A stretch of DNA of 64,000 nucleotides from Rhynchopus sp. YZ270_cl-10 (Eukaryota). The position numbers and the translations under genes were made by a program. Positions 9,930-61,461 of the stretch are shown here, in pieces (position 1 is the first letter of the stretch; each line of letters starts with the position of its first letter). The notes beneath the pieces are model-generated. The model was not told where the DNA came from. It was given only the letters and a program-made list of their open reading frames with translations, and made no database searches. The DNA is taken from assembly GCA_964035575.1 (NCBI GenBank), contig OZ037846.1, positions 744,001-808,000 on the forward strand. The letters run 5' to 3'.

Positions 9930-9931
9930 AG

Positions 9932-14159: not shown

Positions 14160-14190
<31 letters not shown>

Positions 14191-17100
14191 ATTTATTCAC
14201 CTCCTTTTAGCGGGGTTTTATTTTGCGATAACTTCACGCATTTTTTTCCCAGGCGAGGGCTACTTAATTTGCCGAGCGAAGCGAGGCAAATTGAGTGCAC
14301 GAGCCTGGGAAAAAAATAAGTGAAGTATCGCAAAATAATCCGCTAAAAGGAGGTGAATACGTAATTTTATTTCACGGGAAATAAAGTATACGAAAGGATT
14401 TGGCACTTTTAGCGGGACTCATTTATTGTGCAATAACTAACGAGAATGTGTCCCTCCAGGTAGCTCTCATTACCCTCCCGCTAGCTTTTGCTCGCTGGGA
14501 ACCTGCAAAAAACTGGTGAATTGGGCCCATACCCTGGTATGTGGGGTGGGATACGCATTTTTGGGGTGGCAGAACCATGTGTGAGCCACAGGGTGGTGCA
14601 CGTGTGACCCCATGCAGTACCACACAACCCACGTTTTTACACACACAACAACGGCATTTTGCGTGTAGCGCGTACAGTATGTAGCCTAAAAAGCCCACAC
14701 CACGTGTACGCATAGCGCGTAGCGCAGCGTGTGGTCGGGTTTGGAAAGCTGCCTCAACGGTACACAAAGCTACATCCCGACCTCTCGCCACCTCAGTGTC
14801 CCCTCGGGTGCTAGCGGGAGGTCGGGAAATGGCTGTCGTGCAAGAGCGAGACACATTCAGAAGATCCCCGCCCATCACAGAATATCATGCCAGCCACCAC
14901 CTTCCTCACAATGAAGTAAAGGGGGTGGTGTGTCCTTCGTCTTGATAGTGAGATCGTCACGGAGATACACTATGTACGAAACGAAGTCGGCTTCCGTGGG
15001 CTTACCGTCAGGCTTGCCAATGAATTCCTTAAAAAGCGGTCCCATTCACGGACGTACGGTGTCGACAATGCTAGTCCTTCAGCAAAACCACTGTAGTGCT
15101 TGTCCATCTCCTGTCGGAGGACCGTTTGCGTCTTACATCCTTCGGCATGTTGCATGTGTCAGAAAAAAAATGGGAAAAGGGCAAAAAAAATTCGAAATTT
15201 TCAATTTTTAGGTGGGTGGTGGTGCAGGATGTACCAAAATTTAGCGTGAAGTTATCGCCAAATAAAACCCCTGTTTTAGCGTGAAAAAAACAAAAATAAA
15301 ATCCCGCTCTGAAGGAATTGCAGTGAAATAAAGTGAAAAACGCGTGAAATAAAGTTCAATGAGCGGGTTTTTAATTTGCGATAAAAAAACTGCGTGAAAT
15401 TATCATTAAAAAGAATCCCGCTAAAAGTGCCAAATCCTTCGTATACTTTATTTCCCAGTGGAATAAAATAACTATTTAAAGGGGGGACCCGTCGATTATT
15501 TACCTTTTGAAAAGGTAAATAATACACGAAAGGTAAATAATACATGGAAGGTAAATAATACAATATTTGGACTTTATTAATGCAAAAGGTAAATAATATA
15601 CGGTTTGACCTATTGCGGGTAAACGGTCCTGTTTTCGATGCACACCCACTAGACCCCCGACTCACTGCACAACAGATTTTCACGCCCCGCCCTTCCCCCT
15701 CCCCGGAACCCCTCTCGCCGTCATGTTGAACGCCTCGACCCTTGCAGAGCTGAACCACCAGTGGGATGAGGTGCGCCGTGGCCGCTGCGAGGTGGTCGTC
15801 GGCCTCGACGAGGCAAGCGTGGCGAGCCTGGACCTGGACGTTGAGAGCTTCAGCGACACGTCCAGTGCCTCAGAACTTCACCCAAAAAAAGCGGGGCGGA
15901 AAATTAATTAATTAAATGCCAATTCAAAAGGTAAATAATACACGAAAGGTAAATAATACAATGTTTGGCATTAAAAAGGTAAATAATACACGAAGGTAAA
16001 TATTACAATAGGTAAATAATCGACGGGTCCCCCCTTTATTCACCTCCTTTTAGCGGGGTTTTATTTTGCGATAACTTCACGCATTTTTTTCCCAGGCGAG
16101 GGCTACTTAATTTGCCGAGCGAAGCGAGGCAAATTGAGTGCACGAGCCTGGGAAAAAAATAAGTGAAGTATCGCAAAATAATCCGCTAAAAGGAGGTGAA
16201 TACGTAATTTTATTTCACGGGAAATAAAGTATACGAAAGGATTTGGCACTTTTAGCGTGACTTATTTATTGTGCAATAACTAACGAGTATGTGTCCTCAC
16301 AGGAAGCTCTCAGGGGAAAAAAAAAAAAAGAGCGTGAAAAAAAAAAAAAAAAAAAAAGCTCTCATTACCCTCCCGCCAGCGCTACCGGGTCCCGCGGACC
16401 CCTAGATAGGCCCGCTGAGGGGCTGGCGGGATTGAGGGGGCTAAAAAAGGCTGGACGGTCCCTCCAGCCCTACTATCTACATGTACCAAAATTTGGCGTG
16501 AAATTATCATTAAATAAAATCCCGCTAAAAGTGCCAAATCCTTCGTATACTTTATTTCCCAGGGGAATAAAAAAAAAAAGTCAGAGATCTGAATTGGCGC
16601 AAAGTGATTTAACGGGAGAACACATACCGGAGTTGAGCTTCTCGTGCATCGGAGAAGTTTGCGCCAAGGATAATGATGGGGAACGCAGCTATGAGAATGC
16701 CTGTGAACATTGCTGCTGCCCCCACGAGGTAGCCCTGTGTGGTGTGTGGTTGATGTCTAGTGAGGGTCGTTCTTGCGCAGAATATGGCCCTTAATGTTGT
16801 GTGCGGTGATTTAAAATCGGTGTTTGGGCAATTTCTAGGCCCGGGAATATGGCCCAAAGTGTGATGTGTTAGAAAAGCTGTGGGGTCATTCCTGAGATCG
16901 GAATATTGCCCAGCCATCTTCAGCCCAGAAGACTGAAGATGCTTTAAAAAAATATCATAATTACCCTAGCCATACCGGAAGCGTGACGGGAATCATATCA
17001 CCATAACCCACTGTGGTGATTGTGACGAGGCACCACCAGAAGGAGTGTGGGATGGATTTAAAGTCGTGTTGGCGGTTGGCCCCACCGTATTGGGAGTCGC

Positions 17101-18055
17101 GCACCCAGGTTTGGTTGATTGGGTCAAAGGTGGCTGCGCTTTGCTCGGCAAAGAAGACGGCGGAGCCGAAGATTACCACGGTGATTGTTGTGAGGAAGAG
17201 AAGCAACGACAGCGCATCGGACGACCGCCGCAGGGCAATCCCTACCACCTGAATGCCTTCGGAATACTTCGACAGTTTGAACACCCGAAACATCCGTGCA
17301 AGCCGCACCACTCGCAGAACAATAAAACCACGCCCCGTACCACTCCCAACCCACGCCTGAACCATAATATCAATATAAAACGGCAGCACTGCGACCATAT
17401 CAACCCAGTTCAGCACATCCTTCAGAAACCTCTTTTTGTTCGAAGAAGTGACAAACCTTGTTGCCATCTCTAAGGTGAACCATGCGATGCAGACTGCCTC
17501 GATTATGAGGAATGCGGGCAAATCGCGTGAATAGTACTGCGGCAACGACTCAACTGTGAACACCATGACACTGGTGATAATCAACACCAGCGTTAAGACA
17601 AACGTCCCTGTCGCAAGCACCCAATACTTCTCTGCAAACAGCGTCTCCCCAAAGCCTTCCGCCTCAAAGAGCGCATGGATCTTTTGCTTTAAGCTCAGAA
17701 GCGCGATCTGCTCCTCCATGATGTGTGATGGTGTTGAGTCGAGGTCCTGCTGTTCAGAGGCGGCGGCAGAACCCATCGGTGAACGTTGGGGTGTTGAGTT
17801 GAGGGTGGTTTGCAGTCGCCTCGTGAGCGGGTTGCTTGGTGCGCGCCGTGGGAAGATCGTGTTAGGTGGCCTGCTATTGTTTGATCGGGTGCTCGCCTTC
17901 AGCGCGCCTGCGGACTGCCCTTTCGCAATGACCCGTGGAGAGCGTTCAGAAGTCACGTCACTCTGTTGGCGTTCCATCTCGCTAGCGCGAGGGTTCCGTG
18001 AGGCACGTACAGTGTGTGTCGCAACGGATTCGGCACGTCCGCTGTCGGACATCAT
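13533..18055 (-). CDS. Voltage-gated K+ channel (6TM Kv-like), 3 exons
   Basis: Exons 18055-16976, 16734-16628 and 13956-13533 are joined by phase-consistent GT-AG introns. S4 is LRVVRLARMFRVFKLSK, the pore is FWWCLVTITTVGYGD, and S6 is GILIAAFPIIILGANF. The 5' end may extend further. Confidence 0.92.
14188..15470 (+). mobile_element. Crypton-like element (end palindrome + subterminal inverted repeat) with recombinase relic
   Basis: Palindrome 14195-14360 is centred on GCCGAGCGAAGCGAGGC. Block B (~14366-14418) is inverted at ~15414-15468. There is no TSD, and the element sits in an A-run inside Kv intron 2. Confidence 0.7.
14870..15110 (-). pseudogene. Frameshifted tyrosine-recombinase-like N-terminal fragment
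   Basis: Reads ...LSTPYVREWDRF(frameshift)KEFIGKPDGKPTEADFVSYIVYLRDDLTIK..., similar to the Y..W..F / te..f..Y...L pattern of the core-binding domain of tyrosine recombinases. Confidence 0.5.
15471..16570 (+). mobile_element. Short Crypton-like copy, head-to-tail with the preceding copy
   Basis: Same palindrome and B/B' ends as 14188-15470; 16037-16570 is nearly identical to about 27907-28450. Confidence 0.75.
15479..16036. mobile_element. MITE with TA TSD inserted in the head of the second Crypton-like copy
   Basis: 27-bp TIR AAGGGGGGACCCGTCGATTATTTACCT. Removing it plus one TA restores ACTATTTATTCACC, as seen at 14188 and 27902. Confidence 0.85.
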
Positions 18056-19475
18056 CGAGTCAGTGTCGCTGTCGCCATTTCGGCTGTGAAGGGTGGTTTG
18101 TTTGAAAAGGGTTGGTATGGACAGAGGTAATGACTGTCACTAAAAGATTTGGTATTTTGTGCGCTCAAAAAGCTGGTCATTATGAAAAAAAAAAAACACC
18201 ATGCGGTTGATTTCTTTTCTGTTTTGCTATTTCCCAACGCGCTCCAAATATTAAAGTAAAAGAAAAATTTTGATGTGAGACAACAAACACCGGTGGGGTA
18301 AAAAAGAAGGGGGGACAAAAAGTGGAAAAAGTTTTTTTTTTTTTTTTGTACTTTGTCACTCGAATTACCATATTTTCACGAAACGAAAGTGAAAGGGGAG
18401 GGGAAACACATACGTGGCGAAAGCAGCACTCACAGTCATGATAGACGCGGCCATCTTGCGGGGGGTACTAAACTAGGACGTCCAATGGCTTTACGGCACG
18501 CAATGCGGAATGCTTATTGCTACGAAAGAGAGAGAGAGGGAGAGGGGGAGGGGGAGGGGGAATGGAAATCGTCGGGAAGATGCGAACTGCCCAACGATTT
18601 CAGGGGAGTCAGCCCGGCTAGAGGTGCATTAGAAAACACCCGAAAACAAAGAAAGAAGAAAAAAAAAAAAAAGGGAAAAAGAGAAAAAAAAGCTTATCAA
18701 GATGAACCCTAAGCCTCTCTGTGCTGTCACCCTAAAGAAAAAGGTACAAAAAAAAAAAAAACTTAGGTGTTAATGTGGAAAAAAGAGGGGGATAAAAAGG
18801 AGATGGGTGGAGGAGGAGGGGGCAATGTGTCTGCACAGATTCACCGCCCGCGGAACGGGGGGTGCGGGGAAGCGCCTGTTTGGGTGGGAAGTGAAGTGTG
18901 TGTGATGATGTGTGGTTCAGCCCCCGCTGATATCGTATAAAATTTTTTTCGTTGCGGCGCAACAGAACTGGGGTATGAAAGTTTGTTTGTTTTGTATTTC
19001 AACGGAACTGGGGTAGGGAAGACGGGGAAAAAAAAAGTTTATAAGATGACCCTAAGCCTCACATACTTAGTCACCTTTATCACATTCGTTATCGCGCAGA
19101 AGGGGGAAAAAAAATGGAAATCCCGAAGTGAGTAATATGGTTCAAGAGTGTAGATATGTGGTACAGTGTTGAGATAAAATACAAATTTTGTTTGATTTGA
19201 GTTTTTTTCTGACGGAGGGGGGATTTTTTTTTTTTTCCATCTTTCAGTTCACTGCAACGGAAGTTTGCTGTAGAACACTAATAGGTTGGGGGTGAAGGGA
19301 AGAGCATTTAATTGCATATAGTGAACAATCTTTACACATAAAAGGATAGTTAAAGAGAGAGAGGGGGCGAATGGCTGAACACGAAATACAGCCATCATGA
19401 GGGGGGAAGGGGATGAATGGAAGGGAGTACAGTACTGAAGGTAGGTAAATGGTAATATTTTTTTGCAGACCCGAT

Positions 19476-19681
19476 CATACTTCATGGTCCGCCGGAGTCC
19501 GCCGGAGTTGTGACAGACTATGCCGGACTTCGAAAGTCCGTCTCGAGTCCACCCGAGTCCGTCTCAACTCAAAAGGTTCGCCCGAGTTGAGACGGACCCG
19601 AGACGGACCTGAGACGGACTTAACTCGGGTGGGGTCTTGGTGGTATTTTTTTTTGCGGACTCAGGCGGACCACGAAGTATG
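19476..19681. mobile_element. MITE with CATAC...GTATG ends
   Basis: About 25-bp TIR CATACTTC(A/G)TGGTCCGCC(G/T)GAGTCC; TSD is degenerate. Confidence 0.7.
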
Positions 19682-19684
19682 ACT

Positions 19685-20829
19685 CAGGGCTTCCCACAGG
19701 GGGGACCAGGGGGGACCACTGGTCCCCCTGGGGGAAAATAAAAATAATAAGGGGGGACCAGGGGGGACCAGGGGGGACCAGGGGGGACCAGCCTGCCCTT
19801 GAGTGTTCCGAGGCTGCCTATTAGGAATTTTCCACATTTTTTTTAATTTTTCCCACCCTCCCGTCCCCGCGCATCCAAATACAGGCAACTACACGACGGT
19901 GATGTACAGTACATTACAAGTGAAGTTACATGTAACGTTACAAGTGAAAAACCGTTACAAGTGAGTTACAAGTGAGTTACAAGTGGGATACATGAATTAC
20001 AGGCAAAATCAGGTTGTAACTGGTGGGTTACAAGTGAGTTACAAGTGAGTTACATGTAACAAAAGTTACATGTAACTCACTTGTAACTCCACTTGTAACA
20101 CCCGTTACATCACCGTCGTGTAACAGGGGGAAAAGATGGCACCAAAAAAGTCCTCCGGACCAAGACAGATTTCCATAATGGAATTTGCAAAGCGACCGGC
20201 GGAGTCCCAGTTATCGGCTCAGGCTCCGAAGAGGCAGAAAATAACGGTTGCAAAGAACCACGAGTATGCCTCATGGGCAAAGTGACCCCGTCACAGCCAG
20301 AACGCGACTCAATTGGTCAAACGCCGAAGGAAAAGGAAGCATGCAGCATGGCAAAAGAAAAAAGTAGCGTACCGTGCGCCTGCGGCGCAAGATTGCAAGC
20401 CACCCATGACATAGTGTGGCTGTAAAATGTGCAATTTTAATCACAGTATTTTGAAATGTTGCGTACCGTGGCTTCGCCAGGAACCTTTGCCATGACTGTC
20501 GTTTCTTTTTGTAGATGTCTATACGAGGAAACGTCTGCACGCTACCGACCTGACATATTTTTTCTTATTCCGCAAAGGTGGGGAACGTGAGATGATATGC
20601 AATATGCGAGTTAATGCAGCAGTTTTAACGGTTTGCCGGGACATTTTCGCCGAAGTCGAAAATTTTTTTTGACCACTTAAAGTGCGTAAAGGCGCGTAAC
20701 GTAACGTAGCGTCAGCGTTAATGCTACACACCACACAAATTAAAATCATTGAAAAAAAAAAAAAAATTCCACCTTTTTTTGGCTGGTCCCCCTGGGAGGC
20801 CAAAACCCCAGATCCTGCGGGAAGCCCTG
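19685..20829. mobile_element. CAGGG-ended non-autonomous element with 6-bp TSD
   Basis: TIR CAGGGCTTCCC(A/G)CAGG; ATGACT on both sides; shares internal motifs with 37433-38231. Confidence 0.8.
19892..20120. mobile_element. Nested MITE with TA TSD (Tc1/mariner-like)
   Basis: 15-bp TIR CACGACGGTGATGTA flanked by TA; internal GTTACAAGTGA repeats. Confidence 0.85.
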
Positions 20830-20945
20830 ATGACTGATACAAAAAAAAAGGGGGTTTTTTTTTTTTGCTTATTTGCAGATTTTGGGCTTTTTTTAATTGT
20901 GTTGAATTTGTGTTTGTTTTGTTTGTTTGTTTTGACAAAAAATTA

Positions 20946-21912
20946 GTTATATACTCCAGGGAGAAATTGAAGCTTTTTTTCCCCGAGGGGGGTGCAACTC
21001 CCAAGGATGTGTATTTCCCGAGCCGAAGGCGAGGGAAATACAAATCCGAGGGAGTTGGCACCCCCCAAGGGGAAAAATCTTCAATTTCTCCCAGGAGTTT
21101 GTAATTTTATTGCCTCCAAATAGTGCCGAAAGCCAAAATTTTAGGGGGTTTTGACCCACCGCGTGTGCACATCTGTTGGTGGGTGCTTGGGGTGCCGTAC
21201 AATAAGAAATGAAGCCGAAAACTAGGGGAGGAGGGTCTTTTTGTATGTCTGAATACTTTTGTTAGTGTTTTTTGTTGAGACGGCTGAAGTAACTCCAGAT
21301 GGTGTTCGACTTCAATTTCCGTTCTTTGTGCAAGTGATCGAAGTAGCGGTGTAATCTTCTCACGTGGCTTGCGGGACTTGATCTTCGACCATTTCAGAAA
21401 TCCTTGCAAAGCAATGTCATGGGTTTCTTTTGTGGGGGCCTTCTTCTGAGCATCCTCATAGATATCTGTGGCCTGCTTCTTGGTAGTCCTTGGCATGATC
21501 TTGTGTTTTTGACGTTAAAATCCCTCTGGGAAGTGGTTTTTGGGTGGAAAAAAACCTCAAAAACGCGTTTTAGACCCCTAGAAAGGCTCAAAACTGCTCA
21601 ATTCTTGCTGGAATTGCAAAATTGGGCACTTTTAGGGGTATGACCAAAAAATTTTTCGAGAGTCTAGTTAGTACGGAGGCGCACCTTAGAAGGCAAAAAA
21701 TCAAAAAAACAGCAGGGAAAAATAGACTTTTTATTCCCTGCCCCTTTTTAGCTGGGGTTCCCGGCTATTTACTATTTATTCCCTGCTCAAATTTACTTTT
21801 TTTCCCTCACCCCAGCCATTTACGGCTAAAAAATGCAGGGAAAAAAACCTACTTTATTTCCTGCCCCCCTAAGGCATTTTGGCTTGAGGCACAATATTTG
21901 GAGGCAATAAAA
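20946..21912 (+). mobile_element. Crypton-like element, second subfamily
   Basis: Palindrome 20953-21099 is centred on GCCGAAGGC. Block B TTTTATTGCCTCCAAATA (~21105) is inverted at ~21895-21912. Flanks are A-runs. An internal ORF relic at 21107-21496 contains APTKETHDIALQGFLKW. Confidence 0.65.
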
Positions 21913-23050
21913 AAAAATAAAACCAAAATGTAATACATTAGTGTAGATACCGATGAGAATCCGTCCCAAAGCTCAAATAATCGAGATGGTTGTTGTTTTT
22001 TTTTGTGGGGTTGCCAGTGTTTCCGAAAGGGCCCATATTGACAGGTCCTTGACATGTCCTTGACACAAGGTTTACAGGGGAAAATGACACACCCCCCCTA
22101 CAGTCCCGGCTATATTTTATAGGCTCTTAAATCGGTATTTTGTATTTATACGGGTTCCTATTTCGTGAATATTTAATTTATTTTTTTAGCGCTGCAAAAT
22201 TTTGCCAAATAATTATTTAATTTCTGTGGCGGGCCTGCTCGGGCTCGTCTGCCTGCGGCGCGACCGTAGGGAGCGCCGCAGGCAGACGGTACGGTACAGC
22301 TGGTGTACGCAGGTGTTGTTTCGCCCACGATTCCGAAACTGCGCGACACCCAGTACGTTGCTGAGGGTGGTGCGGATTTTCGGCGTGATGCCACGCGCAA
22401 GCGAAGCGAAGCGGGAGGCTGTGATCGGCCAGCCGAGCGAGCGGGTTCGCTGCGTGCCAGGCGCACGATGTAGGCTGCTGAAAGGGTGGTGCAGGTCTTC
22501 TGTCCTGTCGCTTCGGCAGCGACATTCTCCAGCAGCACCACGTCTTCAGCCTGCGCCTCGGCCACCTTAATAGCCTCTGCGGCCGTCCTCCCGCTATTTC
22601 AAGGGCGATGTCAATCGGATGTGTGGCTGTTCCGCTTATATTATAGTTTTGTGAAGGAGTGTGTGTGGGGTTAACGGTAGTAAACTGGGTTTCGTGGGTC
22701 ACTAAAAAACGAGGTTTTTATTTCATGAATAATTAATTAATTTTTGGCGGCTTCACGAAATAGAAACCCGGATTATTATAGTCGGGACTGTATATTGACA
22801 TGTCCTTGACATGTCGTTGACATGTCCCCGACAGCAGATCGGTAACACCAGGGGTGTGTTTGAAAAAAATCGGGTAGGGGGGAAGTTCCTGAGCGTAATA
22901 TTGTTCATAAAAGGAGTGTGGGGGTATGGTCGGTGCATCTCTGTATCGCTTTGCAAAGGGCACAACACAGGAACCTGACCGGGTCTGCGCTTGCGGGGAA
23001 CGCGTTCCTGCGTGTGAACGACCTGTCTGCGGAGGTGAAGGTTGACACAA

Positions 23051-25885
23051 CTAGTCTTTTTGCTTCTTCCGTGAGTCGATCTCTTTTTCCAATCGCTTCC
23101 GTGCTCCAAGTTTGAAACCAAGCTCCTGTTTTTTTAGTATTAGCGTAGACCCCCAAAGATGAACCCCACTATAATTTTTATAAGTTTTTTATCACAGTAT
23201 TTTTTTTTTTAAAAACGCACTACGTTGTGAACGGAAAGTGTTAACGTCGTTCACTCACCCCAACCGTGCTCCGCAACACCACCCAACAGGTGTGTGTGGA
23301 AGCGTCAACGCATCAAACAACTCTAAGAAAAGGGGTGGTGAGGGAAACGACACCACTTTTTTGCGTATAAAAAATTGTGAATAAAACAGTATTTTTAAAA
23401 TCATTAATACTCCACCTGTACAATTATGGGCTGGTATCTGTGAACAAAAAAATCTGACAGTACAATTTTCTCCACAAATCCTCCTGCCTAATAAGCAGTC
23501 CAATACACTCCTCGCCTCGTATGAACGAGAGTACAGGGTGTTATTCCTTTTTCACACCATGAAACAGAGCCGCAAGACACCTCACCATGAAGCAGTTCCT
23601 TGCGTACTTCAAGGAGTTGCACGAAGACGGGACCATGAAGGCATCATGCAGACGAAGTGGAGCATGACAAGCAGGATGCTGAGGGTGAGTTACCCTGCCT
23701 TCAAGGCTGGCTTTGAGTCAGTCTCGAAGGTGGGGAGATCTGACGGTAGAGAACGAAGGCGACATCCACAACCGACGTGAAGACGGCGAAAGGAAGACCA
23801 AGCTGGAAAGGCTTGTGAAGGAAGAGAAGGAAATGTGTTGGCGTGTCTCGTTCGCACGTTGCAAAAAAAAAAAAAAAAATCGGGATGCGCACGCGGACTC
23901 CTGTTATTTTGATCCCCTCCGGTTCCCTCTCACTGGTTTATGTGGTGGCATGCTTCCCTGCAGGTATGGAGTACTAAATTTTTCGCCTAGAGTAATTCAG
24001 GTGTAATTGTGTGTACGTAGACTGAACGTGTACCCAAGATAGGCACAGGTAGGTGCGGATAACCAGGTGTGCACGATTTGCGTTTGGGGTAAAACGTATA
24101 AGATCATTGTCAACCCAAAATTGCTTTACACAATACCCGCTAAAAGACAAATTTAACCTCAGCCTTGGAACCCCTCCCAACGATACCTTAAGATCGTCCC
24201 CGGTCAATGCGAGGAAGGTCGACTCATCGATCTTTTCTGAGACAAAGATACTTCGGTCTTCGTCGTCGATGTTGTTGATGGAGGCGAGCCATTCGGGGAA
24301 CTCTGTTTTCACTGCTGCGACGGGGGTCGCTTCGGGGGTAGGCTCTACAGGCTCCACAGGCTGTGCAGGCTGTGTAGGCTGTGTAGGTTGTGTAGGCTGT
24401 ACAGGCGCGACTGCTGCAGGGACATCTGCACCACCGTCACCACCTCCTGGCACCACATCTCCCGTCGCAGGCGCGACGTCACCCTCAGGTACCGCGCCCC
24501 CCGCCTCCTCAATCGGCACCTTCTCCTTACACTGGTTTGCCTCGTACCGTACCTTGTAGCGCTTCCGACTAGACCCGTATGTGTAGATCCCCTCGCCATG
24601 CATCATGTCGTTCTCCCACGCCCCGCTGTACGCGCTCGCGCTTGCGAAGACCAGCTCCCCTTGGCCGTGTTTTTTGTTCTGCAAAAACTCCCCGGTGTAT
24701 TTGTCGCCCTTCTTCGTCTGGAAGGTGCCCTTCCCTTCGCGTGACCCCTGCCGGTAGGTGCCCTCGTAGAATCCACCGTCAGCGTAGACATACTTTCCTT
24801 GGCCGTGTTCGTGGTCGTTGACAAACCCGCCTTCGTACATATCGCCGTTTTCGTATTTGAGGGTGCCGTTGCCGTGCTGTGATGTGGGAGGGGGTAACAA
24901 AATAATGGTGAAATCAATAAAAGTTGCTTGGTGCCAATCTGTAGGTTTCGGCCTACATTGAGTACAGATCTTTATACTACGCAGGGTGTAATGCGATTGT
25001 AGATGCAAAAAAAAACCTCATTTTTTTCTCAGAAACTCTGGTCTTAAAAAAATATCGTTTAGTTTTCCCTTTACATACCATGCAGTCGTTCTTCCAATCA
25101 CCGTCATAGGAATGCTCAGGACACTCATAATACCCTTTGCCATGCTTCTGGTCGTCAACCCAGTCACCCCGGTAGGAGTGTCCATGCGACTTGCTTGACA
25201 ACGTCCCCTTCCCTGTCTGGTGCCCCGCTACCCACTGCCCTTCGTACTTATTGCCGTGCACATCTACTAGCACACCAAAGTCTTGAAACAGGCCTTCCTT
25301 GAAGCCTCCTTTATAGACCTCACCTGATTTGAAGGTAAACTCACCCTGGCCCTCTTCAATTCCTTTGACGAAGGTGCCTTTGTAGGTTCCGCTGGCAGGG
25401 TCGGTGAGCTCTCCTTTTCCGTGGCGTTCGCCGTGTTGCCATTGGCCGTCGTAGATGACGCCAGTTGCTTTGCGTGTGTAGATGCCAGATCCGTGGCGTT
25501 TGCCGGCGTCCCAATGGCCTTCGTAGACGTCCCCTGTTTTGTTCCATGTGAATTTTCCGGTTCCTTGGATTTTTCCGTCGGAGACTTCTCCAAGGTAGGA
25601 GCCAAAGGAGAACTCAACCGCCTGCCCTTCGCTTCCGGCGGCAGTTGGCGCAGCTTTGATTTTTTCCTCCATCTCCTCATCCATCTGCTCCTGCTCAACG
25701 GCGCTCTGCTTCTTCTCGTCCTGCTGCTCGCGTCTGCGTTGTTTCATAAGCTTCTTCATCTCAAGCTTGCGCTTCCTCTCGTCCTCCTGCTGCGACCTCT
25801 CAATCTCCTCCAACTCCTTGCGCTGCTTCGCCTCCTTCTCAGACTCCTCAAGGAGACGTTGTTTGATCGCTGCTTCATCAGACAT
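23051..25885 (-). CDS. Coiled-coil + MORN-repeat + C-terminal SAM-domain protein, 3 exons
   Basis: Exons 25885-25079, 24876-24187 and 23125-23051 are joined by phase-0 GT-AG introns. There are about 12 YxGxWxxGxxHGxG repeats. The SAM-like segment EWLASI...FVSEKID...LALTGDDLK|ELGFKLGARKRL is completed by exon 3. Confidence 0.9.
23504..23700 (+). pseudogene. Frameshifted tyrosine-recombinase-like N-terminal fragment in MORN intron 2
   Basis: Across frameshifts it reads ASYEREYRVLF...LTMKQFLAYFKELHEDGTMKAS/MQTKWSMTSRML, resembling the Crypton recombinase N-terminal pattern. Confidence 0.5.
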
Positions 25886-26718
25886 TTGTAGGGAAGGGGG
25901 GGGGGAGTGAGGTGTGTGCCTGAGTGGAGTGGTGTTGAAAAGGAAAAGACTCTTTAAAGTGAAGTTGTTGATGCAGGCATCTCCGACTGACCCACGATGC
26001 CAGCCATCTGGATGAAAAGTGCAAAGTACTCTGCGGCCAACAGAAGATGTAAAAAAGGAAGCCTAATAGGCTTGCCCGTAAGAGAGCGAAGGTGGTACAC
26101 AACCGTTCGTCATCCGGCGGTCCACCTTTCGTTGAAGAGTTGTGAGCTTCTGCAGCCAGGAAAATGGATGTTCGTGCATACAGAGCTAAAAAAGAAAACG
26201 AAAAGGAACAGATCTATCCACCTGATTTTGGCATGGTAGTAACTTCTGCCAAACAAACGCCAAAATCGGGTCGAAAAATCAGGTGGTGCTTACATCGAGA
26301 ATACATCAAAAAAAAGAAAAAAGAAAAAGGATATGGGGTGGAACGTTTTCCAGAAACATGCATTGGAAATAAATTTAGAATTCTGGCGAGGCAAAAAAAA
26401 TATATATTTGGACCGTTATGCTATACCTTCATTCCCTTTTTTTTTTGTTGTGTCAACTATCGCCTAAGGACCCGCTTGGGGAACCTAGAATCTGTACTTA
26501 ATGTTGGCCGAAGCCTTTTGTACTATGGAAGGTATAGACGTCGGTCGTCCTCAACCCTCAAAAAAAGAGGGATATCCTGTCTTTCTCTTTTTTTTTTTTG
26601 TTGTCAGACCAGCTGTCTCGTATGCGAATCTGAGTTTACCTTTTATTCATTTCATCAGCAAACACACGCTAAGAATACCACGGTACAGGAAAGGGTGTGT
26701 GTGTGTGTGTGTGTGTTT

Positions 26719-27866
26719 CTACTGCCCTCGCCCCACTCTTGCTGTTATCACAAAGTCTACACCAGCGGGCATTACAGTTTCATCCTCACGCTTTGGCTCA
26801 ACCTGAGGGAAAAGAAGGGTGTGTAAAGGGGGCTCAACAGACTGGGTAGCTGCACGGTACTCTTATTGATGTATGCTCGTTGACGTGACCCATCCCCACC
26901 TTCAAACAAACTGAGAGGTGAGAAAGGCGCCACGACGGTACTCTTATTTGCTGTCGGTCAACAACAACAAAATTTGTATAAAATTGTAGCCTACGATCAG
27001 TAGATAGCAGGATTTTTTTTCTTCACAGGATCCTTAAAAGACAGCAAATAAAAGGAAGGTACGCTTTGCAGTAGGATGTCAACACCCTTTTTCTATTTTG
27101 AAAATTTGGTTGTATTAGTGTAGCCACCTAGAGTGTGTTCTACTATTCTCTATTTTGTTTTGGGGGGAGATTTGTTATGCATTATTGTCAACAACAACAA
27201 AAAAAAAAGGGGTGGGGGAATGGTTGATTCTCTCTGTTTTGCTCTGGTTTTATGCTTTAAAAAAAGAGGGGAAACGTTCTTATTTTCTGGGAGGACAGAG
27301 AGGATAGGGAGGGTTGAAAAATCATATATTTTTTTATCGTGCAATTTTTGACTCGTGTACAAATCCTTCAGGAAGAACCAAAAATTATAATCTGGGAGCG
27401 TGTAATTATTACCAAGCGTGTAATTATGAATCGTTAGCGATTTGCGACCAAAAATGTCAACCGTGTAATTATGGGTAATAATTACACGCTCAAACCCACT
27501 TTTGGTGATTCTAAGTCGCCAAAGGGAAAGGGACTCTGCAAAATTTTTTTTCCCCCCTATGAGCATACATGTTGGTACGTACGTAAAACGCGCAAAAATA
27601 ATCAAAAAACGCGCAAAATAATAAAAAAATGTTTTTAATAAAAAACGTCACAAAGACGTTTTGCGCGCTTTTGTTACGTTTTTGTGACGTTTTTATTAAA
27701 AACATTTTTTTATTATTTTGCGCGTTTTTTGATTATTTTTGCGCGTTTTACGTACGTACCAACATGTATGTATAAGGGTTAATTTCGACGATTTGAGCCC
27801 ATTCAAAGCAAAATTTGACCCATTTGAGCAGTTCTAGGCCCCTCAAACACGTTTTTGATTATCCGC

Positions 27867-27901
<35 letters not shown>

Positions 27902-30900
27902 ACTATTTATTCACCTCCTTTTAGCGGGGTTTTATTTTGCGATAACTTCACGCATTTTTTTCCCAGGCGAGGGCTACTTAATTTGCCGAGCGAAGCGAGG
28001 CAAATTGAGTGCACGAGCCTGGGAAAAAAATAAGTGAAGTATCGCAAAATAATCCGCTAAAAGGAGGTGAATACGTAATTTTATTTCACGGGAAATAAAG
28101 TATACGAAAGGATTTGGCACTTTTAGCGTGACTTATTTATTGTGCAATAACTAACGAGTATGTGTCCTCACAGGAAGCTCTCAGGGGGAAAAAAAAAAAA
28201 GAGCGTGAAAAAAAAAAAAAAAAAAGCTCTCATTACCCTCCCGCCAGCGCTACCGGGTCCCGCGGACCCCTAGATAGGCCCGCTGAGGGGCTGGCGGGAT
28301 TGAGGAGGCTGGAGGGAGGCTAAAAAAGGCTGGACGGTCCCTCCAGCCCTACTACCTACATGTACCAAAATTTAGCGTGAAATTATCATTAAATAAAATC
28401 CCGCTAAAAGTGCCAAATCCTTCGTATACTTTATTTCCCAGGGGAATAAAAAAAAAACCCACTTTTTCGGTTCAACATCCATACTTCGGCACATTTCCCA
28501 TACACCCCACATACACACTCCCATCATCGACATACAGTGACTGGAGGGTGACGGGGACTCGCCGGATTTGTACACTCGTCAAAAATTGCACGATAAAAAA
28601 AAAACTAATTATTGGTGTGGCTGACGACCCCAAAATAGCAGAAAATAGCAGAAAATCGCAGAAAATAGCAGAAAATAGCACTTTGGGGGGATTTTTTTGG
28701 GTTTGGTGGCTGGGTGGTGGTGTGGCTCCCGATGGACGAGGGAAGGAAACTTGGCCAGCCCGCAAACCCGGAAACCCCCTCCCACTCCACAAACGGATCA
28801 TAAGGTACACAGTACACAGTACACAGTACACAGTACACAGTACACAGTACACAGTACACAGTACACAGTACACAGTACACAGTACACAGTACACAGTACA
28901 CAGTACACAGTACACAGTACACAGTACACAGTACACAGTACACAGTACACAGTACACAGTACACAGTACACAGTACACAGTACACAGTACACAGTACACA
29001 GTACACAGTACACAGTACACAGTACACAGTACACAGTACACAGTACACAGTACACAGTACACAGTACACAGTACACAGTACACAGTACACAGTACACAGT
29101 ACACAGTACACAGTACACAGTACACAGTACACAGTACACAGTACACAGTACACAGTACACAGTACACAGTACACAGTACACAGTACACAGTACACAGTAC
29201 ACAGTACACAGTACACAGTACACAGTACACAGTACACAGTACACAGTACACAGTACACAGTACACAGTACACAGTACACAGTACACAGTACACAGTACAC
29301 AGTACACAGTACACAGTACACAGTACACAGTACACAGTACACAGTACACAGTACACAGTACACAGTACACAGTACACAGTACACAGTACACAGTACACAG
29401 TACACAGTACACAGTACACAGTACACAGTACACAGTACACAGTACACAGTACACAGTACACAGTACACAGTACACAGTACACAGTACACAGTACACAGTA
29501 CACAGTACACAGTACACAGTACACAGTACACAGTACACAGTACACAGTACACAGTACACAGTACACAGTACACAGTACACAGTACACAGTACACAGTACA
29601 CAGTACACAGTACACAGTACACAGTACACAGTACACAGTACACAGTACACAGTACACAGTACACAGTACACAGTACACAGTACACAGTACACAGTACACA
29701 GTACACAGTACACAGTACACAGTACACAGTACACAGTACACAGTACACAGTACACAGTACACAGTACACAGTACACAGTACACAGTACACAGTACACAGT
29801 ACACAGTACACAGTACACAGTACACAGTACACAGTACACAGTACACAGTACACAGTACACAGTACACAGTACACAGTACACAGTACACAGTACACAGTAC
29901 ACAGTACACAGTACACAGTACACAGTACACAGTACACAGTACACAGTACACAGTACAGCACCTGATCTATATCGGGACAAAATACATTTTTTTTTGCTAA
30001 AATTGATCTTATTTTTTACGCTGTTTTGCTCGAAAAAAACGTTGTCTGCATCTTTGGTAGGTGTTTTGGGGACTGGCTGGGGTCAGGAGTGCCTCATTTC
30101 CCCTCCCTTTAGCAAAAGCCCAAACCACGGCCAAAAAATAAAAAAAATCCAGACCCCCAAAATAGCAGAAAATAGCAGAAAATAGCAGAAAGTAGCAGAA
30201 AATAGCAGAAAATAGCAGAAAATAGCACCCCCCTTCAGCCACACCAATTATGTGAAATTATTACCAGATAATTACACTTAGGTGTGTTTTTTGTCACTTG
30301 TTCCCTAAACCCACTCGCTTCGCTCGTGGGTTTAGGTCACTCGTGACAAAAAACACACCTGCGTGTAATTATGGGGTAATAATTACCCAATAATTATATC
30401 ACACATTCTCCGAAATTGCGTATCATTTTTCAGATTTTTCACTCACTCGGCCCAGATGCATATTTTTTATCGTCCGACCCCGGAATTGAACGTTTCGAAA
30501 CCGCGCTTTCAAAAGAAATAAAAATCTCAAAAAAATAAAAAAAATCTTTTTTCTGAAATCACCGTGAGAGTTTTTACCTCCTAATCTCAGCAACAGGTGA
30601 GAAAAGGACAGATGCATAATTCTGTCTGAAAATGCGCGGAATGGTGTTTCCGGACTCCAAACTTTTCAAAGAAAAAAAAATCGAGCAATTTAGTCAAAAA
30701 ACTATTAAATTGGATTGGCTCCATTGTAGAACACCCATATACAGGGCAATTTGGCTGCAATTTGGGTGTAAAAATGGGGTTGGCTCCACCGAAACCTGGC
30801 TGACACATAGTATTTTTCCGGCGGAAAAAAATCGTCAGAATTGAAAGAATTGTTGAAAATAATTCCAAAGAAAAAAAAAATTGGCAACTTTTGATAAAAA

Positions 30901-33188
30901 CGTTTTTAGTGGAATAAGTCACCGAAGACCACCCAAAAAGGGGTTTCTAACCTGATCCCTTAGGAAAGTACAGGGAATACCTGAAAACGCCCCTCCCTCC
31001 CAAAATCCTTTGCGACATGAAGAGAGGCATAAAAAAAATCGTCCGACCCCGGAATTGAACGTTTTCACACCCGATCTTTCAAAATAAAAATAAAAATATT
31101 TTTTTTGGGGCGCGAGAAATTAGTAGGATCCACCCGTCAACGCACACAGACGTTTAATGACCTCAGGGTGCAATATTTTTTTGCAAAAAGGCGCGGAATG
31201 GCATTTCCGGAGCGATCTGAAAAAATTCCGGGGTCGGAGAATTTTTTTAGTGGAAAAATAGTCACTTTAAATTGGCTCCATGGTTGGTCACAAGTGATAC
31301 GCAGTTTCGGAGAATGTGTGATATATATTTGTTTTTGCTCTGGAAGAGAGTGAGTGAGTGACATACCGCCGCAACGACACCCAACGCATAGAGGGCCCCA
31401 CGCAACATGCCGGCAGGGAAGTACAACAGTGTGAGCGGGTTCAGTCTCGGAAGGGTGTCCTGTTGTGTGGTTGTTGTGGTATTGTCTTCTACACGTGTTA
31501 GACTCGTTGGTCCGTGTTTCAAGACGGGTAGTTAAAGGTCGCTATGTCAGGTGCCCACCCTACGTAAACTAATCTGAGATACACACGCCTCACCTGAACG
31601 CAGACAAATAGAGTAAAAATCGGTCATACCGTTGTGAAGTCGTCAAGCCCCAAAGGCACAGTGTGGCCTTCAATCAACGCTTCGAACTCGACGCCGTCTG
31701 ATGCTGAAACTATAGACTTGTTCACACCAGACGGCATCTGTTGACTCGTAATCACAAGCTTCAGGCCTGCGTGAAAGGTAACACCATCATGGATCACTTC
31801 TCGTGCCAACAGCCCTCTTGTACCAGGTGCATAAAGCTGTACACCTGCACAGCACACATGCTGTAAATACTTAAAATTTGCTGCTTTTACAATGAAAACC
31901 TGTAGAGAAGGGGGGGGTGTTTTTGCAGCTAAAACTGCAATACATTTTTTTTTTGTTATCTACTCAGGGTTTTTTCTAGGATTTTTTTTTTCAGATCTGG
32001 GGGGGGACGCAAAAAACCCGCCCAAAAAAAAAAAAAAAAATTTCGCAGGTGCAAGCAGGGTTTCCGCTTATCTTCATGGAAAAATTTTCCAAAACCGTGA
32101 AGATATGTCCAAAAAGGGGTCAAAATTTTTCGCGCTCCGCGCAAAAAAGCCCGTTCATTTCACGTAAATACGTGATAACGTGGGATGGTAACGTACATCA
32201 AGAACCAACCCTTTTTCTCATGTTCCACGGAACCTTCCCTCAGTACAAGAAGAAACGGCGGTCATGATATCAGAACTTTCTGGCGAAGCCACGGTACGCA
32301 ACATTTCAAAAAATTGTGACCTAAAATTGAACATTTGTACAGCCAAACTATGGTAGAGGGCTGTGGGATTCCGCTCATAAGTTTTGAGTTGCGCCGCAGG
32401 CGCACGGTACGCTACGTTTTTGATTTTTGCCGATCCCTTATTCTCACTCTTTGTTCGGCCCGTCAAATGGTGCAAAGATTGAGTGAATTGGGGCACGGTC
32501 TGAAACTTCACCTCGCTTTTTCCTCTTCACAATGATGCCAGGAAGGGGATAAGACGCGCTTCGCGCGCGCTCGACTCCCTGCCTCCCCTTTTTTTCTGGT
32601 GCGGGTTATGTACGTGGTGTCCCAAATGGGGGGTCTGTGCGGGTGACCCCAACCACCCCCCATATCCTTTTTTTCCCAAGTCAAAATGCGTCCCCCCCCG
32701 TCCCCCCCTAGAAAAAACCCTGTCTACGCTTGAGACACTGTATTTCACGCCCCTTAACAAATTTGCCTCGGGCTATTTTTTCACCAAAAAAACAGCCTAA
32801 TAAATTCACACCAATAATATATCGCATTTTTCTTCAAAAATTGAAACCTTTAGAGGGTAGATTACATCCTACTTTAATTCTATTGACATACATCGCCTTG
32901 TTTGTTCATTTTCAGCGCATCCATAGGCTTCTTGAACGCAAAGGGCCAGAACTCTCTACACAGATACCGCACAGCCTCTTTGGGCTCCTCACGCCGGGAG
33001 AGCTTCAGGAGAGACCGTTCCTTCATGAGACGCTCCATGATACCGACGCCTACGCGGAAGCCCATTGCCTCTTGCCGTCGTACGAGCACGTCGTCTGTGC
33101 CACCCTGCTCCACCACGTTCTTCAGCAAACACTGCATAGACTCTGTAATAAGCATCAACATCGCACTCTCAGATATTTCTTTCGGCAT
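26719..33188 (-). CDS. TRAPPC6: TRAPP complex subunit 6 (Trs33-like), 4 exons
   Basis: Exons 33188-32892, 31899-31630, 31459-31367 and 26802-26719 are joined by phase-0 GT-AG introns. Motifs: EAMGFRVG..IMERL, YLCREFWPFAFKKPMDALKMNKQG, YFPAGMLRGALYALGV. Confidence 0.9.
27564..27770. mobile_element. Fold-back MITE (CATAC...GTATG), almost entirely palindromic
   Basis: About 95-bp near-perfect inverted arms; flanks TATGAG / TATAAG. Confidence 0.85.
27900..28450 (+). mobile_element. Short Crypton-like copy
   Basis: Near-identical to the copy ending at 16570; embedded between A-runs. Confidence 0.8.
28613..30246. mobile_element. TGGTG...CACCA element with 5-bp TSD carrying a (CAGTACA)n array
   Basis: 12-bp TIR TGGTGTGGCTGA; TSD ATTAT; subterminal (AAAATAGCAG)n at both ends. 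Confidence 0.85.
28805..29957. repeat. (CAGTACA)n heptamer array, ~165 units
   Basis: Perfect 7-bp tandem repeat. Confidence 0.99.
30398..31322. mobile_element. Non-autonomous TIR element in TATA context
   Basis: TIR ATCACACATTCTCCGAAA(T/C)TGCGTATC; shares internal GTCCGACCCCGGAATTGAACGTTT with 34932-35842. Confidence 0.8.
31491..31529 (-). other. ~39-nt fragment of LSU (28S) rRNA in TRAPPC6 intron 2
   Basis: Minus strand reads ACCCGTCTTGAAACACGGACCAACGAGTCTAACACGTGT, matching the conserved LSU segment just 3' of the D2 domain (NL4/LR3-type primer site). Confidence 0.85.
31965..32722. mobile_element. CAGGG-ended MITE in TRAPPC6 intron 1
   Basis: TIR CAGGGTTTTTTCTAGG; flanks TCTACT / TCTACG; inverted near-identical copy of 37433-38231. 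Confidence 0.9.
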
Positions 33189-59491: not shown

Positions 59492-59883
59492 CAAGGCGAC
59501 CACTCGACCACGTGGTCGACCATGAAAATGACCTCCTCGACCATGGTCGACCACGTGGTCGACCACGTGGTCGACCATGTGGTCGACCATGGGGTCGACC
59601 ATGAGGTCGACCACCGACGTGTTTTGGTGGTCATACTGGGCCAAAACCGCCAGAAACTGCACCCACGAGGTGTTTTGAGGTCCTACAACGGGTTCCACGG
59701 CTATATGGGTGTCGACCACCCAAGGTCGACCCAAAAAAAAATTTTGGCAAAGACAAAATCCGATTTTTAACCTGAAAAAAAAAAAAAAAAAAGTGTTTTT
59801 TTTTTTCACAAAAAAAAATTTTTTTTTTTTTTCGTGGTCGACCACGCCAAAATGGTCGACCACGTGGTCGAGTGGTCGCCTTG
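59492..59883. mobile_element. CAAGG-ended MITE, copy 1
   Basis: 31-bp TIR CAAGGCGACCACTCGACCACGTGGTCGACCA; left flank CTGTGGA, right flank CTTATAC. Confidence 0.93.
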
Positions 59884-61057
59884 CTTATACAGGCTACTGT
59901 AGACCAGAATCCTTGTCATTTTTCTTGAAATTTCTGAAAAAAATCAGGGAAAAATTCAAAATTTCAGAATTTTGTGACTTTTTGGGTATTATTTTTGATT
60001 TTTTGGCAATTTTTCAAAAAAAAACGGGAAAACGAGAAAAAAAACCGGACCCTAACCCACAGAATGAGCTCAATAGGCGAGCGAAGCGAGCCTATTGGGC
60101 GACTTTTGACCGTATTTTGGTTGAAAATTTGAGTTGAAAATTTTTTTCATAATTTGCCCAATCTGAGGTTTTCATTGGATTCTTTGGGCCATTTTATGAG
60201 GTACCACGGCAAATTTTGGGCGAAAAAAAAAAATTTTTTTTGGTCAAAAATCGCCTTGTATAGCCACTGTATTGGTGTAGGCTTGTGCACAGAAGTGTGT
60301 TTTGTGTAACCACAGATGGTCAAAACACCCGATTTTTGCGTTTTTTCGCATTTTTTGGTGCCCAAAAACCCAGGTCAGGGGTCGAAATTTTGCCGAAAAA
60401 AAAAATTTTTTTTTTGAGATTTTTCGATTTTTTGCTAAGGTGCTGGCCCATACAAACTGTACAGGGTGGATATTTTATACACAAAATGGCCAGGAAATAA
60501 ATATGTGATGCTCAAAACATCAAAATTTTTCGTTTTTTTGCATTTTTGGGCCAATCTGAGCCCAAAAAAAATTTTTTTTTCAGCTGAAATTTGTCTTTGC
60601 CAAAAAAAAAATTTTGGTCACTTTATCTCCCTCCTGCTCACTTTATCTCCCTGCTGCTCACTTTATCTCCCTCCTGCTCACTTTATCTCCCTCCTGCTCA
60701 CTTTATCTCCCTCCTGCTCACTTTATCTCCCTGGGGAGATAAAGTGAGCAGGAGGGAGATAAAGTGGGTAAATTTTACACCCTATAGGGAATAATTTTTG
60801 CGTAAGGGAGGGTATAAAGTGTACCCTGAGGGATACAATAGTTATTTATTCTACCCCCGGGGAGTCACTTTATCTCCCCCGAGGGAGCCAATATTTCCCC
60901 GAGGGCCCGTAGGGCCCGAGGGGAAATATTGGCTCCCGAGGGGAGATAAAGTGAACTCACCGGGGGTAAATATGTAATTTTGTATCCCAAAGGGTGCACT
61001 TTTGACCTCCCGAAGCAAAAAAAATGGCTTATAAGGCCTATGTAGGGTCTCTTATAC
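59884..61057 (+). mobile_element. Circularly permuted Crypton-like element
   Basis: B' (60816-60838) directly abuts the left end and palindrome (60841-60980), followed by B (60980-61002). The segment starts and ends with CTTATAC. There is a 20-bp tandem repeat at 60619-60732. Confidence 0.65.
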
Positions 61058-61461
61058 CAAGGCGACCACTCGACCACGTGGTCGACCATGAAAATGACCT
61101 CCTCGACCATGGTCGACCACGTGGTCGACCACGTGGTCGACCATGTGGTCGACCATGGGGTCGACCATGAGGTCGACCACCGACGTGTTTTGGTGGTCAT
61201 ACTGGGCCAAAACCGCCAGAAACTGCACCCACGAGGTGTTTTGAGGTCCTACAACGGGTTCCACGGCTATATGGGTGTCGACCACCCAAGGTCGACCCAA
61301 AAAAAAATTTTGGCAAAGACAAAATCCGATTTTTAACCTGAAAAAAAAAAAAAAAAAAGTGTTTTTTTTTTTCACAAAAAAAAAATTTTTTTTTTTTTCG
61401 TGGTCGACCACGTGGTCGACCACGCCAAAATGGTCGACCACGTGGTCGAGTGGTCGCCTTG
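61058..61461. mobile_element. CAAGG-ended MITE, copy 2 (direct orientation)
   Basis: Near-identical to 59492-59883 apart from one extra 12-bp unit; left flank CTTATAC, right flank CTGTGGA. Confidence 0.93.

What the first reader, a model, noticed from the sequence alone, without database searches (positions are those of the whole stretch)
14188..30397. Family of palindrome-ended, TSD-less elements with tyrosine-recombinase relics (Crypton-like)
Seen: six elements (14188, 15471, 20946, 27329-30397 minus, 27900, 59884-61057) fall into four sequence-divergent subfamilies but share one architecture. Each has a 130-170-bp imperfect palindrome centred on a tiny GAA- or GTA-loop hairpin, immediately followed by a block B that is inverted at the far end. 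Most begin RYTATWTAYT, close the palindrome with GTAATTTTRT, and sit in A-runs. Two contain decayed ORFs resembling a recombinase core-binding domain. Inference: structure has been conserved while primary sequence turned over, which suggests folded ends recognised by a recombinase. I do not know of this being described in this lineage.
Basis: partly seen in the sequence, partly recalled or inferred. Interest (0 to 1): 0.8.

Follow-up and report, generated by a model that had tools for sequence, protein, structure and literature searches.

The report
Recombinase transposons that splint their ends
Six small jumping-gene copies from four unrelated-looking families carry a long one-strand DNA hairpin and a mirror copy of their own joined ends, and one copy sits with its ends already joined, which suggests they likely move as folded single-stranded circles cut by a tyrosine recombinase.

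Summary
The architecture is real, with corrected boundaries. Six copies in four families have a 125-166-nt hairpin followed by block B, which is inverted at the far end. Hairpin arm plus B is the reverse complement of the element's joined ends, apart from a small mismatched bubble. One copy (59884-61057) is circularly permuted, trapped between two copies of another transposon, so joined ends existed. All six tips read GA-stem-GNA-stem-GA on one strand (0 in 20 shuffles), and 13 of 17 two-by-two mismatches are all-purine against 1 all-pyrimidine, which fits selection on folded single-stranded DNA. Two relics each point weakly to the integrase SAM-like domain (Pfam E=0.006; ESM Atlas 0.90). No catalytic domain or autonomous copy was found, no genome was held, and no empty site was seen, so 'no TSD' is untested. 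Best reading: Crypton-like tyrosine-recombinase DNA transposons with DIRS-like end splints. Helitron2/Helentron shares the gross layout and remains a rival. Ten literature searches showed no such layout for Cryptons. This scan has noted it before on other DNA (39 notes, at least 9 genomes; unchecked).

The parts
14187..15468 (+). Family A copy 1 (A1), longer interior: hairpin 14194-14359 (tip GAA 14278-14280), junction mimic 14361-14370, block B about 14365-14417, B' about 15416-15468; 64-nt A-rich run on the left
14905..15148 (-). Broken ORF in A1, starting at an ATG about 320 nt inside the B' end, in three frames; likely N-terminal (SAM-like) piece of a tyrosine recombinase
   Evidence: Atlas 0.90 to phage-integrase SAM-like clusters; no Pfam hit
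15469..16572 (+). Family A copy 2 (A2), short interior, abutting the end of A1 so that a B'|start junction forms; hairpin 16037-16202
15479..16036 (.). Unrelated TIR MITE inserted in the first bases of A2, with TA on both sides (15477-15478, 16037-16038)
   Evidence: sequence
20944..21912 (+). Family C copy: hairpin about 20952-21099 (tip GAA 21025-21027), mimic 21101-21110, B 21105-21148, B' 21865-21912; short A-runs on both sides
21265..21496 (-). Broken ORF in C, starting at an ATG about 415 nt inside the B' end, one frameshift, ends at a stop; likely integrase SAM-like domain piece
   Evidence: Pfam Phage_int_SAM_5 E=0.0064 and SAM_1 E=0.022, both under the curated cut-off; noise band
23475..23740 (+). 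Third broken ORF resembling the C relic, with no hairpin or B/B' ends found around it
   Evidence: local score against the C relic reached by 6 of 3000 shuffles; no Pfam hit
27329..28601 (-). Unit F: 38-bp inverted ends with one GA/GA mismatch on the minus strand and A-run termini like B/B', but no terminal hairpin; holds A3 and an 81-bp perfect palindrome (27564-27770); possibly a family member that lost or shares its hairpin
27900..28451 (+). Family A copy 3 (A3), nearly identical to A2, in an A-run inside F; hairpin 27908-28073 (tip 27992-27994)
28608..30396 (-). Family D copy: hairpin 30385-30255 (tip GAA 30321-30319), B about 30250-30232, B' about 28626-28610, a 7-nt microsatellite of 165 units inside (28805-29957); a TIR element (30395-31325) abuts its start
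59884..61057 (+). Family E copy, circularly permuted: B' 60795-60836, joined ends at about 60838/60839, hairpin 60848-60972 (tip GTA 60909-60911), mimic 60974-60983, B 60980-61021; second short GA/GAA/GA hairpin at 60083; same 7-mer CTTATAC at both edges
59492..59883 (.). TIR element X, left copy; outer flank CTGTGGA (59485-59491)
61058..61461 (.). TIR element X, right copy (one extra 12-nt unit); outer flank CTGTGGA (61462-61468); X-E-X interrupts a LINE reading frame that is open across the site once the block is taken out

Best explanation
These are non-autonomous, internally deleted copies of mobile DNA elements whose internal hairpin-plus-B block mirrors their own joined ends; they are likely Crypton-like tyrosine-recombinase transposons and likely move as a folded single-stranded circle. 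On the GNA-loop strand the order is a - tip - a' - B ... B'. Shown: a'B pairs with both ends at once (a and B'), lining them up like a splint; in a circle, B'|a and a'B form one stem of about 100-120 bp with a mismatched bubble at the joint; joined ends exist in one copy. Inferred: an element-encoded tyrosine recombinase binds this folded stem as if it were a double-stranded site, exchanges one strand with an A-rich target through a few bases of homology, and host replication resolves the intermediate, as for integron attC cassettes and phage CTX. The GNA loop and tandem G-A mismatches would stabilise and mark the active strand, and the GNA tip might also prime second-strand synthesis.
For: Reverse complement of a'B aligns with the natural junctions A1|A2 and E, differing only in a central bubble 2-3 nt longer on the junction side; the same holds when C's ends are juxtaposed. 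Tip motif GA-stem-GNA-stem-GA: 8 in the window (6 at the element hairpins), 0 with other loops, 0 in 20 shuffles. Of 17 two-by-two internal loops in eight duplexes from the four families, 13 are all-purine (8 GA/GA) and 1 all-pyrimidine on the GNA strand, binomial p=0.002; single mismatches about 29 G-A against 4 C-T (rough alignment for D). GCGAAGC-type mini-hairpins are far more stable as DNA than as RNA and occur at ssDNA replication origins (PMC13037366 passages). E is permuted, with identical inner 7-mers, identical outer 7-mers and an open LINE frame across the removed block. Two relics in two families, same position and orientation, point by two methods to the integrase SAM-like clan. 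No Rep, helicase, RT or DDE hit among 137 six-frame segments that include the element interiors.
Against: No catalytic domain, no autonomous copy and no homologue found. The Pfam hit lies inside the noise band: unrelated segments reached E=0.0008-0.005. The Atlas hit has low recognition (2181, under 2300) and 67-79 shared features, and a third of shuffled proteins also get ten same-clan hits. A and C relics do not align with each other (2882 of 3000 shuffles as good). PHROGs, NCBIfam and PDB sequence searches gave nothing relevant; the relic model was poor (pLDDT 56) and had no fold match. The tip motif also occurs in a TIR MITE at 22266 and inside E, in phage DNA and, as a GAA-loop hairpin, in Fusarium Helitron2 ends, so it does not name the enzyme. 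Family D's bubble differs from the others. A tandem dimer would explain E as well as a circle.
Confidence: 0.6

Rival explanations
1. Tyrosine-recombinase elements in which the internal mimic is only a template for rebuilding or ligating the ends of a single-stranded copy (the DIRS ICR role), after which a normal double-stranded circle is integrated. They could then be non-autonomous partners of a DIRS-type retroelement.
For: [quoted passage not shown] DIRS-1 makes single-stranded cDNA, needs its ICR and leaves no target duplication. The relics are YR-like.
Against: The DIRS ICR is described as an exact complement, whereas here a mismatch bubble sits on the joint and G-A mismatches run along both helices. 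No long ITR pair, no gag before the relic ATG and no RT trace in the interiors. The GNA triloop favours DNA over RNA.
Confidence: 0.2
2. Non-autonomous Helitron2/Helentron (HINE-like) rolling-circle elements moved by an HUH Rep/helicase; the SAM-like pieces would be captured fragments or chance.
For: Same gross layout: one inverted repeat at a terminus, the other subterminal beside a hairpin, T-rich targets, internal microsatellites (PMC4067079, PMC11417382, PMC3627910 passages). Fusarium Helitron2 ends have GAA-loop hairpins, joined-end forms and self-insertions (PMC5148889 passages).
Against: Described repeats are 8-16 bp and palindromes 5-10 bp, with the subterminal repeat 20-60 bp from the end; here B is 15-53 bp, arms are 60-85 bp and the repeat lies 130-175 nt in. 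Two independent families carry an ATG-started SAM-like relic at the same place; no Rep or helicase trace.
Confidence: 0.12
3. Ordinary TIR MITEs (B/B' as TIRs) with a neighbouring fold-back made by template switching; the shared design is coincidence.
For: The window is full of TIR MITEs and perfect fold-backs; unit F has B-like inverted ends and no hairpin.
Against: The hairpin travels with B in three separate A copies; four unalignable families share the tip and three share the closing and opening motifs; mismatches are strand-biased.
Confidence: 0.04

Closest known systems
Crypton DNA transposons (Kojima and Jurka 2011, PMC3212892; abstract, parts 1-2 of 7 and word-search passages read)
   Same: Recombinase-like ORF as the first and only coding trace; non-autonomous deletion derivatives; no evident target duplication; proposed circular intermediate.
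   Different: Described Cryptons have 4-6-bp terminal direct repeats or no terminal repeats at all; the text has no 'hairpin' or 'palindrom'. Their circle is assumed double-stranded and the mechanism is undemonstrated (PMC13565253 passage). The catalytic domain was not seen here.
DIRS-like tyrosine-recombinase retrotransposons (PMC7192593, PMC3266345; passages read)
   Same: Internal block complementary to both termini in the same order; single-stranded intermediate; no target duplication; insertion into earlier copies.
   Different: No long ITR pair, gag or RT seen; the mimic is imperfect at the joint; it is fused to a GNA-tipped terminal hairpin.
Helitron2 / Helentron / HINE (PMC3627910, PMC4067079, PMC5148889, PMC11417382; passages read)
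   Same: Terminal plus subterminal inverted repeat beside a hairpin, T-rich targets, microsatellite cargo, GAA loops, joined ends.
   Different: Repeats and hairpin here are several times longer and form one continuous stem; relics are integrase-like, not Rep/helicase.
Integron attC cassettes and phage CTX attP (PMC4792948; passages read)
   Same: Works like: a site defined by fold rather than sequence, with unpaired bases favouring one strand, predicted to be used by a tyrosine recombinase with replicative resolution.
   Different: Eukaryotic host; the site is built from the element's two ends plus an internal splint; no attI platform or cassette array; no biochemical evidence here.

Membership tests
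Crypton | Encodes a tyrosine recombinase with the R-H-R-Y catalytic tetrad | tested here: inconclusive
   Only N-terminal SAM-like pieces, weak hits; no catalytic domain in the 137 segments scanned; no full-length relative.
Crypton | No RT, Rep/helicase or DDE gene in the element | tested here: inconclusive
   None in the six interiors, but these are deleted copies and the autonomous form is unseen.
Crypton | No terminal inverted repeats; short 4-6-bp direct repeats or none | tested here: not met
   B/B' is an asymmetric inverted repeat of 15-53 bp and a long hairpin opens the element. A shared AAAA at both ends of A and C could be the short direct repeat.
Crypton | No target-site duplication | not testable with these tools
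   No empty sites: no genome held and no reads available; A-runs would hide a duplication.
Crypton | Recombinase groups with CryptonA/I/F/S/V in a tree | not testable with these tools
   No catalytic-domain sequence and no Crypton reference proteins were obtained.
DIRS-like retrotransposon | Internal region complementary to both termini | tested here: met
   imperfect at the joint.
DIRS-like retrotransposon | Long inverted terminal repeat pair and gag, RT/RNase H genes | tested here: not met
   The two termini (a and B') are not inverted copies of each other; no RT trace.
Helitron2/Helentron | Rep/helicase gene | tested here: inconclusive
   No trace in the interiors; autonomous form unseen.
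Helitron2/Helentron | Asymmetric inverted repeats of 8-16 bp, short hairpin, subterminal repeat 20-60 bp from the end | tested here: not met
   Layout matches but sizes do not: repeats 15-53 bp, arms 60-85 bp (paper values).
Helitron2/Helentron | Insertion between T residues | tested here: met
   A1-A3 and C lie in A/T runs; D does not clearly and E cannot be judged.
Integron attC-like folded-strand substrate (works like) | Fold conserved, sequence not; unpaired bases favour one strand | tested here: met
Integron attC-like folded-strand substrate (works like) | Recombinase acts on the folded single strand | not testable with these tools
   Needs biochemistry.

The most novel reading that the evidence does not exclude
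A eukaryotic class of tyrosine-recombinase DNA transposons that moves by folded single-strand recombination: an internal splint aligns the two ends, the element leaves as a single-stranded circle, and the folded circle integrates by one strand exchange, a eukaryotic counterpart of integron cassettes and CTX. Copy E is a fossil of that circle, and the design may link Crypton ends with the DIRS ICR.
Probability: 0.45. Interest if true: 0.85.

Novelty: new variant of a known kind. Interest (0 to 1): 0.62.

Why it matters
How Cryptons move has not been shown, and their ends are said to lack structure. A defined end design (hairpin, junction mimic with a bubble, strand-marking G-A mismatches) gives oligonucleotide substrates and clear predictions, so the question becomes testable. 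If right, folded single-strand recombination by a tyrosine recombinase, known from integrons and CTX, also works in eukaryotes. It would also mean that hairpin-plus-asymmetric-repeat elements cannot be filed as Helentrons from layout alone.

Tried and rejected
No whole genome is held and no sequencing runs were obtained, so long copies and empty sites stay unseen. Protein searches with relic pieces found no full-length relative: no candidates; 4 candidates, none at E<=10; one hit, P0001, matching only the stretch over C's block B at 81%, i.e. another copy of the C end; chance hits; none in viral contigs. First Atlas search on the mostly off-frame C ORF gave only hits under 0.9. PHROGs and NCBIfam: nothing relevant. 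AlphaFold on a 56-aa piece: pLDDT 56, two helices; Foldseek no match. DNA pattern scans: viral contigs 0, 8 and 0 loci; metagenome contigs 30 loci; none of the 30 or the 8 has the long palindrome with B/B', and 50 of the 115 longer ORFs from these loci that I scanned held no recombinase. Rfam: no match in the window. My first palindrome scan missed the GAA-tipped hairpins because its filter needed a paired stem beside the loop; and replace it. The A read-through was mis-assembled; one search replaces it. One search added one extra A at the A junction and juxtaposed D's ends roughly; one search is the cleaner count. Alignment-based covariation across families was not run, since the families do not align (3 invariant columns) and the A hairpins are identical. 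Rejected: A1-A2 as a rolling-circle dimer (their interiors differ, so one inserted at the other's end); 27329 as D's far end.
Full report
Setting. The window is repeat-rich eukaryotic DNA with a few host genes and a LINE. No genome is held and no reads were obtained, so all copy-level work rests on the window.

The elements are real. Self-comparison and DNA folding give six hairpin-bearing copies: A1 (14187-15468), A2 (15469-16572, with a TA-flanked MITE in its first bases), A3 (27900-28451), C (20944-21912), D (minus, about 30396-28608) and E (59884-61057). The A copies are 97% alike over their first 280 nt; the four families do not align beyond short motifs. Fold z-scores are -10 to -16 on the listed strand. 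The closing motif GTAATTTTRT occurs 5 times in the window (0.45 expected), all at these hairpins; the opening motif occurs 7 times (0.99 expected), 4 of them at element starts. P0001 shows another copy of the C end on a separate long contig.

The design. On the GNA-loop strand each element reads a - tip - a' - B ... B'. The reverse complement of a'B is a copy of what the two ends give when joined (B'|a). Two natural joints exist, A1|A2 and inside E, and both align with their mimic except for a central bubble that is 2-3 nt longer on the junction side. C gives the same picture when its ends are juxtaposed; D fits less neatly. E folds as one continuous stem across its joint (-90.9 kcal/mol on the GNA strand, -84.3 on the other). 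So a'B can act as a splint that aligns both ends.

One strand is favoured. All six tips read GA, a 2-6-bp stem, GNA, stem, GA; the inner stem differs between families but stays paired. The window holds 8 such tips, none with another loop, and 20 shuffles hold none. Among 17 two-by-two internal loops in eight duplexes, 13 are all-purine and 1 all-pyrimidine on that strand (p=0.002); four of the 13 are the tips themselves. Random decay would give purine and pyrimidine loops equally (inference). GCGAAGC mini-hairpins hold a sheared G-A pair, are much more stable as DNA than as RNA and sit at ssDNA priming sites (PMC13037366, passages). This points to folded single-stranded DNA. It does not name the enzyme: two of the 8 tips are elsewhere, and Fusarium Helitron2 ends have GAA-loop hairpins too (PMC5148889, passages).

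Joined ends existed. E lies between two near-identical TIR elements X. The inner flanks are both CTTATAC, the outer flanks both CTGTGGA, and the LINE frame is open across the site when the block is taken out. The simplest histories are a circle of E carrying X that recombined with a resident X, or a tandem dimer of E moved between its two X copies. Either needs a B'|a joint. A1|A2 is not a rolling-circle dimer, since the interiors differ; one copy landed on the end of the other.

The enzyme. A1 and C each hold a broken ORF that starts at an ATG 320-415 nt inside the B' end and reads toward the hairpin. The C piece hits Pfam Phage_int_SAM_5 (E=0.0064) and SAM_1 (E=0.022), under the curated cut-offs; reading it through with X did not improve this (E=0.011). 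Among 137 six-frame segments, unrelated ones reached E=0.0008-0.005, so this hit alone is weak. The A piece, unaltered, drew phage-integrase SAM-like clusters in 9 of the 10 Atlas rows shown, at 0.89-0.90, with low recognition and few shared features. Two weak leads from two families and two methods agree on one clan, which I weigh at about 0.8 for a tyrosine recombinase. A third relic (23475-23740) resembles the C piece (6 of 3000 shuffles) but has no such ends; A and C do not align with each other. No catalytic domain or full-length relative was found.

Mechanism. Shown: the splint geometry, the bubble, the strand bias, a joined-end copy, A-rich flanks for 4 of 6. Inferred: the GNA strand folds when exposed, the recombinase joins B' to a and frees a single-stranded circle, the folded circle offers a duplex-like site with a mismatched centre, one strand is exchanged with an A-rich target, and replication resolves it. 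That is how attC cassettes and CTX work (PMC4792948, passages). How the circle is first released is the least supported step. Rivals: a DIRS-like template role followed by double-stranded integration (0.2) and Helitron2/Helentron (0.12).

Comparison with print. Cryptons are described with short direct repeats or no terminal repeats (PMC3212892: abstract, parts 1-2 of 7, word search; PMC13465315 passages), and their mechanism is undemonstrated (PMC13565253 passage). DIRS elements have the internal complement but also long ITRs and RT. VIPER and TATE of kinetoplastids have split direct repeats (PMC6681497 passages). Helitron2 shares the layout at smaller scale. Searches listed no paper whose title, abstract start or read passages describe a Crypton with a terminal hairpin and junction mimic. 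CryptonV is known to me only from a citing passage (PMC8869645); Repbase Reports, subscription papers and all supplements were not seen and may hold such a description. I therefore do not file these as Cryptons outright: the terminal-repeat test fails and the catalytic test is open. They work like a recombinase element with DIRS-like end splints.

Earlier scan notes. The scan has noted this design on other DNA: 39 notes in at least 9 genomes, several said to be coral or oyster and some said to include a whole recombinase. They are unchecked AI notes; I tested only the corresponding features in this window. I had the junction mimic before reading the notes that describe it. They raised my odds for a recombinase slightly and are not counted as evidence.

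Verdict. A real, well-defined family design with good structural evidence, a rare joined-end fossil, and weak protein evidence. New variant of a known kind; interest 0.62.

Noticed in passing
window 59485-61468: X-E-X block inside a LINE (endonuclease, RT, RNase H hits). X has 32-bp TIRs starting CAAGG and 7-bp flanking duplications, which from memory fits P-superfamily elements. A second TIR element (about 58800-59200) interrupts the same LINE.
   Followed up: partly
window 7480-9935: Element with 35-bp inverted ends and a 342-aa ORF with no Pfam or NCBIfam hit; three 97-99% identical 394-aa proteins exist in the database, so it is a recent multicopy element with an unclassified protein.
   Followed up: partly
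window 7329, 23137, 27112, 34706, 36650, 38568, 41343, 41766: Eight copies of a roughly 70-nt repeat, all on the + strand, with a small hairpin and a following T-run; could be a tiny Helitron-like or RNA-derived element.
   Followed up: partly
window 31946-38250: 755-bp inverted repeats (95% alike) enclosing about 4.8 kb that includes a TRAPP-family gene fragment (32883-33194, Pfam E=2.6e-10) and further MITEs: possible gene capture by a fold-back element.
   Followed up: no
window 22099-22792: TIR MITE with an internal 16-bp stem tipped by the same GA/GTA/GA motif (22246-22288), so the motif is not confined to the hairpin-ended families.
   Followed up: partly
window 11854, 12988, 20383, 32396, 37808: A shared GCA-loop mini-hairpin block recurs in several different repeats.
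   Followed up: no
window 33639-33738 and 42812-42932: Two other long imperfect hairpins without GNA tips (z about -7); the first has regular two-by-two mismatches of another type.
   Followed up: partly
window 11136-11729 and 28805-29957: The same perfect 7-nt microsatellite (85 and 165 units) lies in two different elements; a 38-nt satellite of 76 units lies at 51437-54322.
   Followed up: no
window 16961-18136, 23974-26062, 39857-40695, 47754-49880: Host genes: voltage-gated potassium channel, MORN-repeat protein, dual-specificity phosphatase, and a membrane protein without Pfam hit. The host is a repeat-rich eukaryote; a euglenozoan such as a diplonemid is my guess from memory, not tested.
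   Followed up: no
window 56141-57234: Two diverged tandem copies (68% alike) of a roughly 550-nt non-coding unit.
   Followed up: no
L002, L004, L007, L008, L011, L016, L019, L020, L023, L026, L027, L029 at the pattern match: A multicopy repeat in eukaryote-like metagenome contigs carries a doubled GA/GAA/GA tip without a long stem.
   Followed up: no
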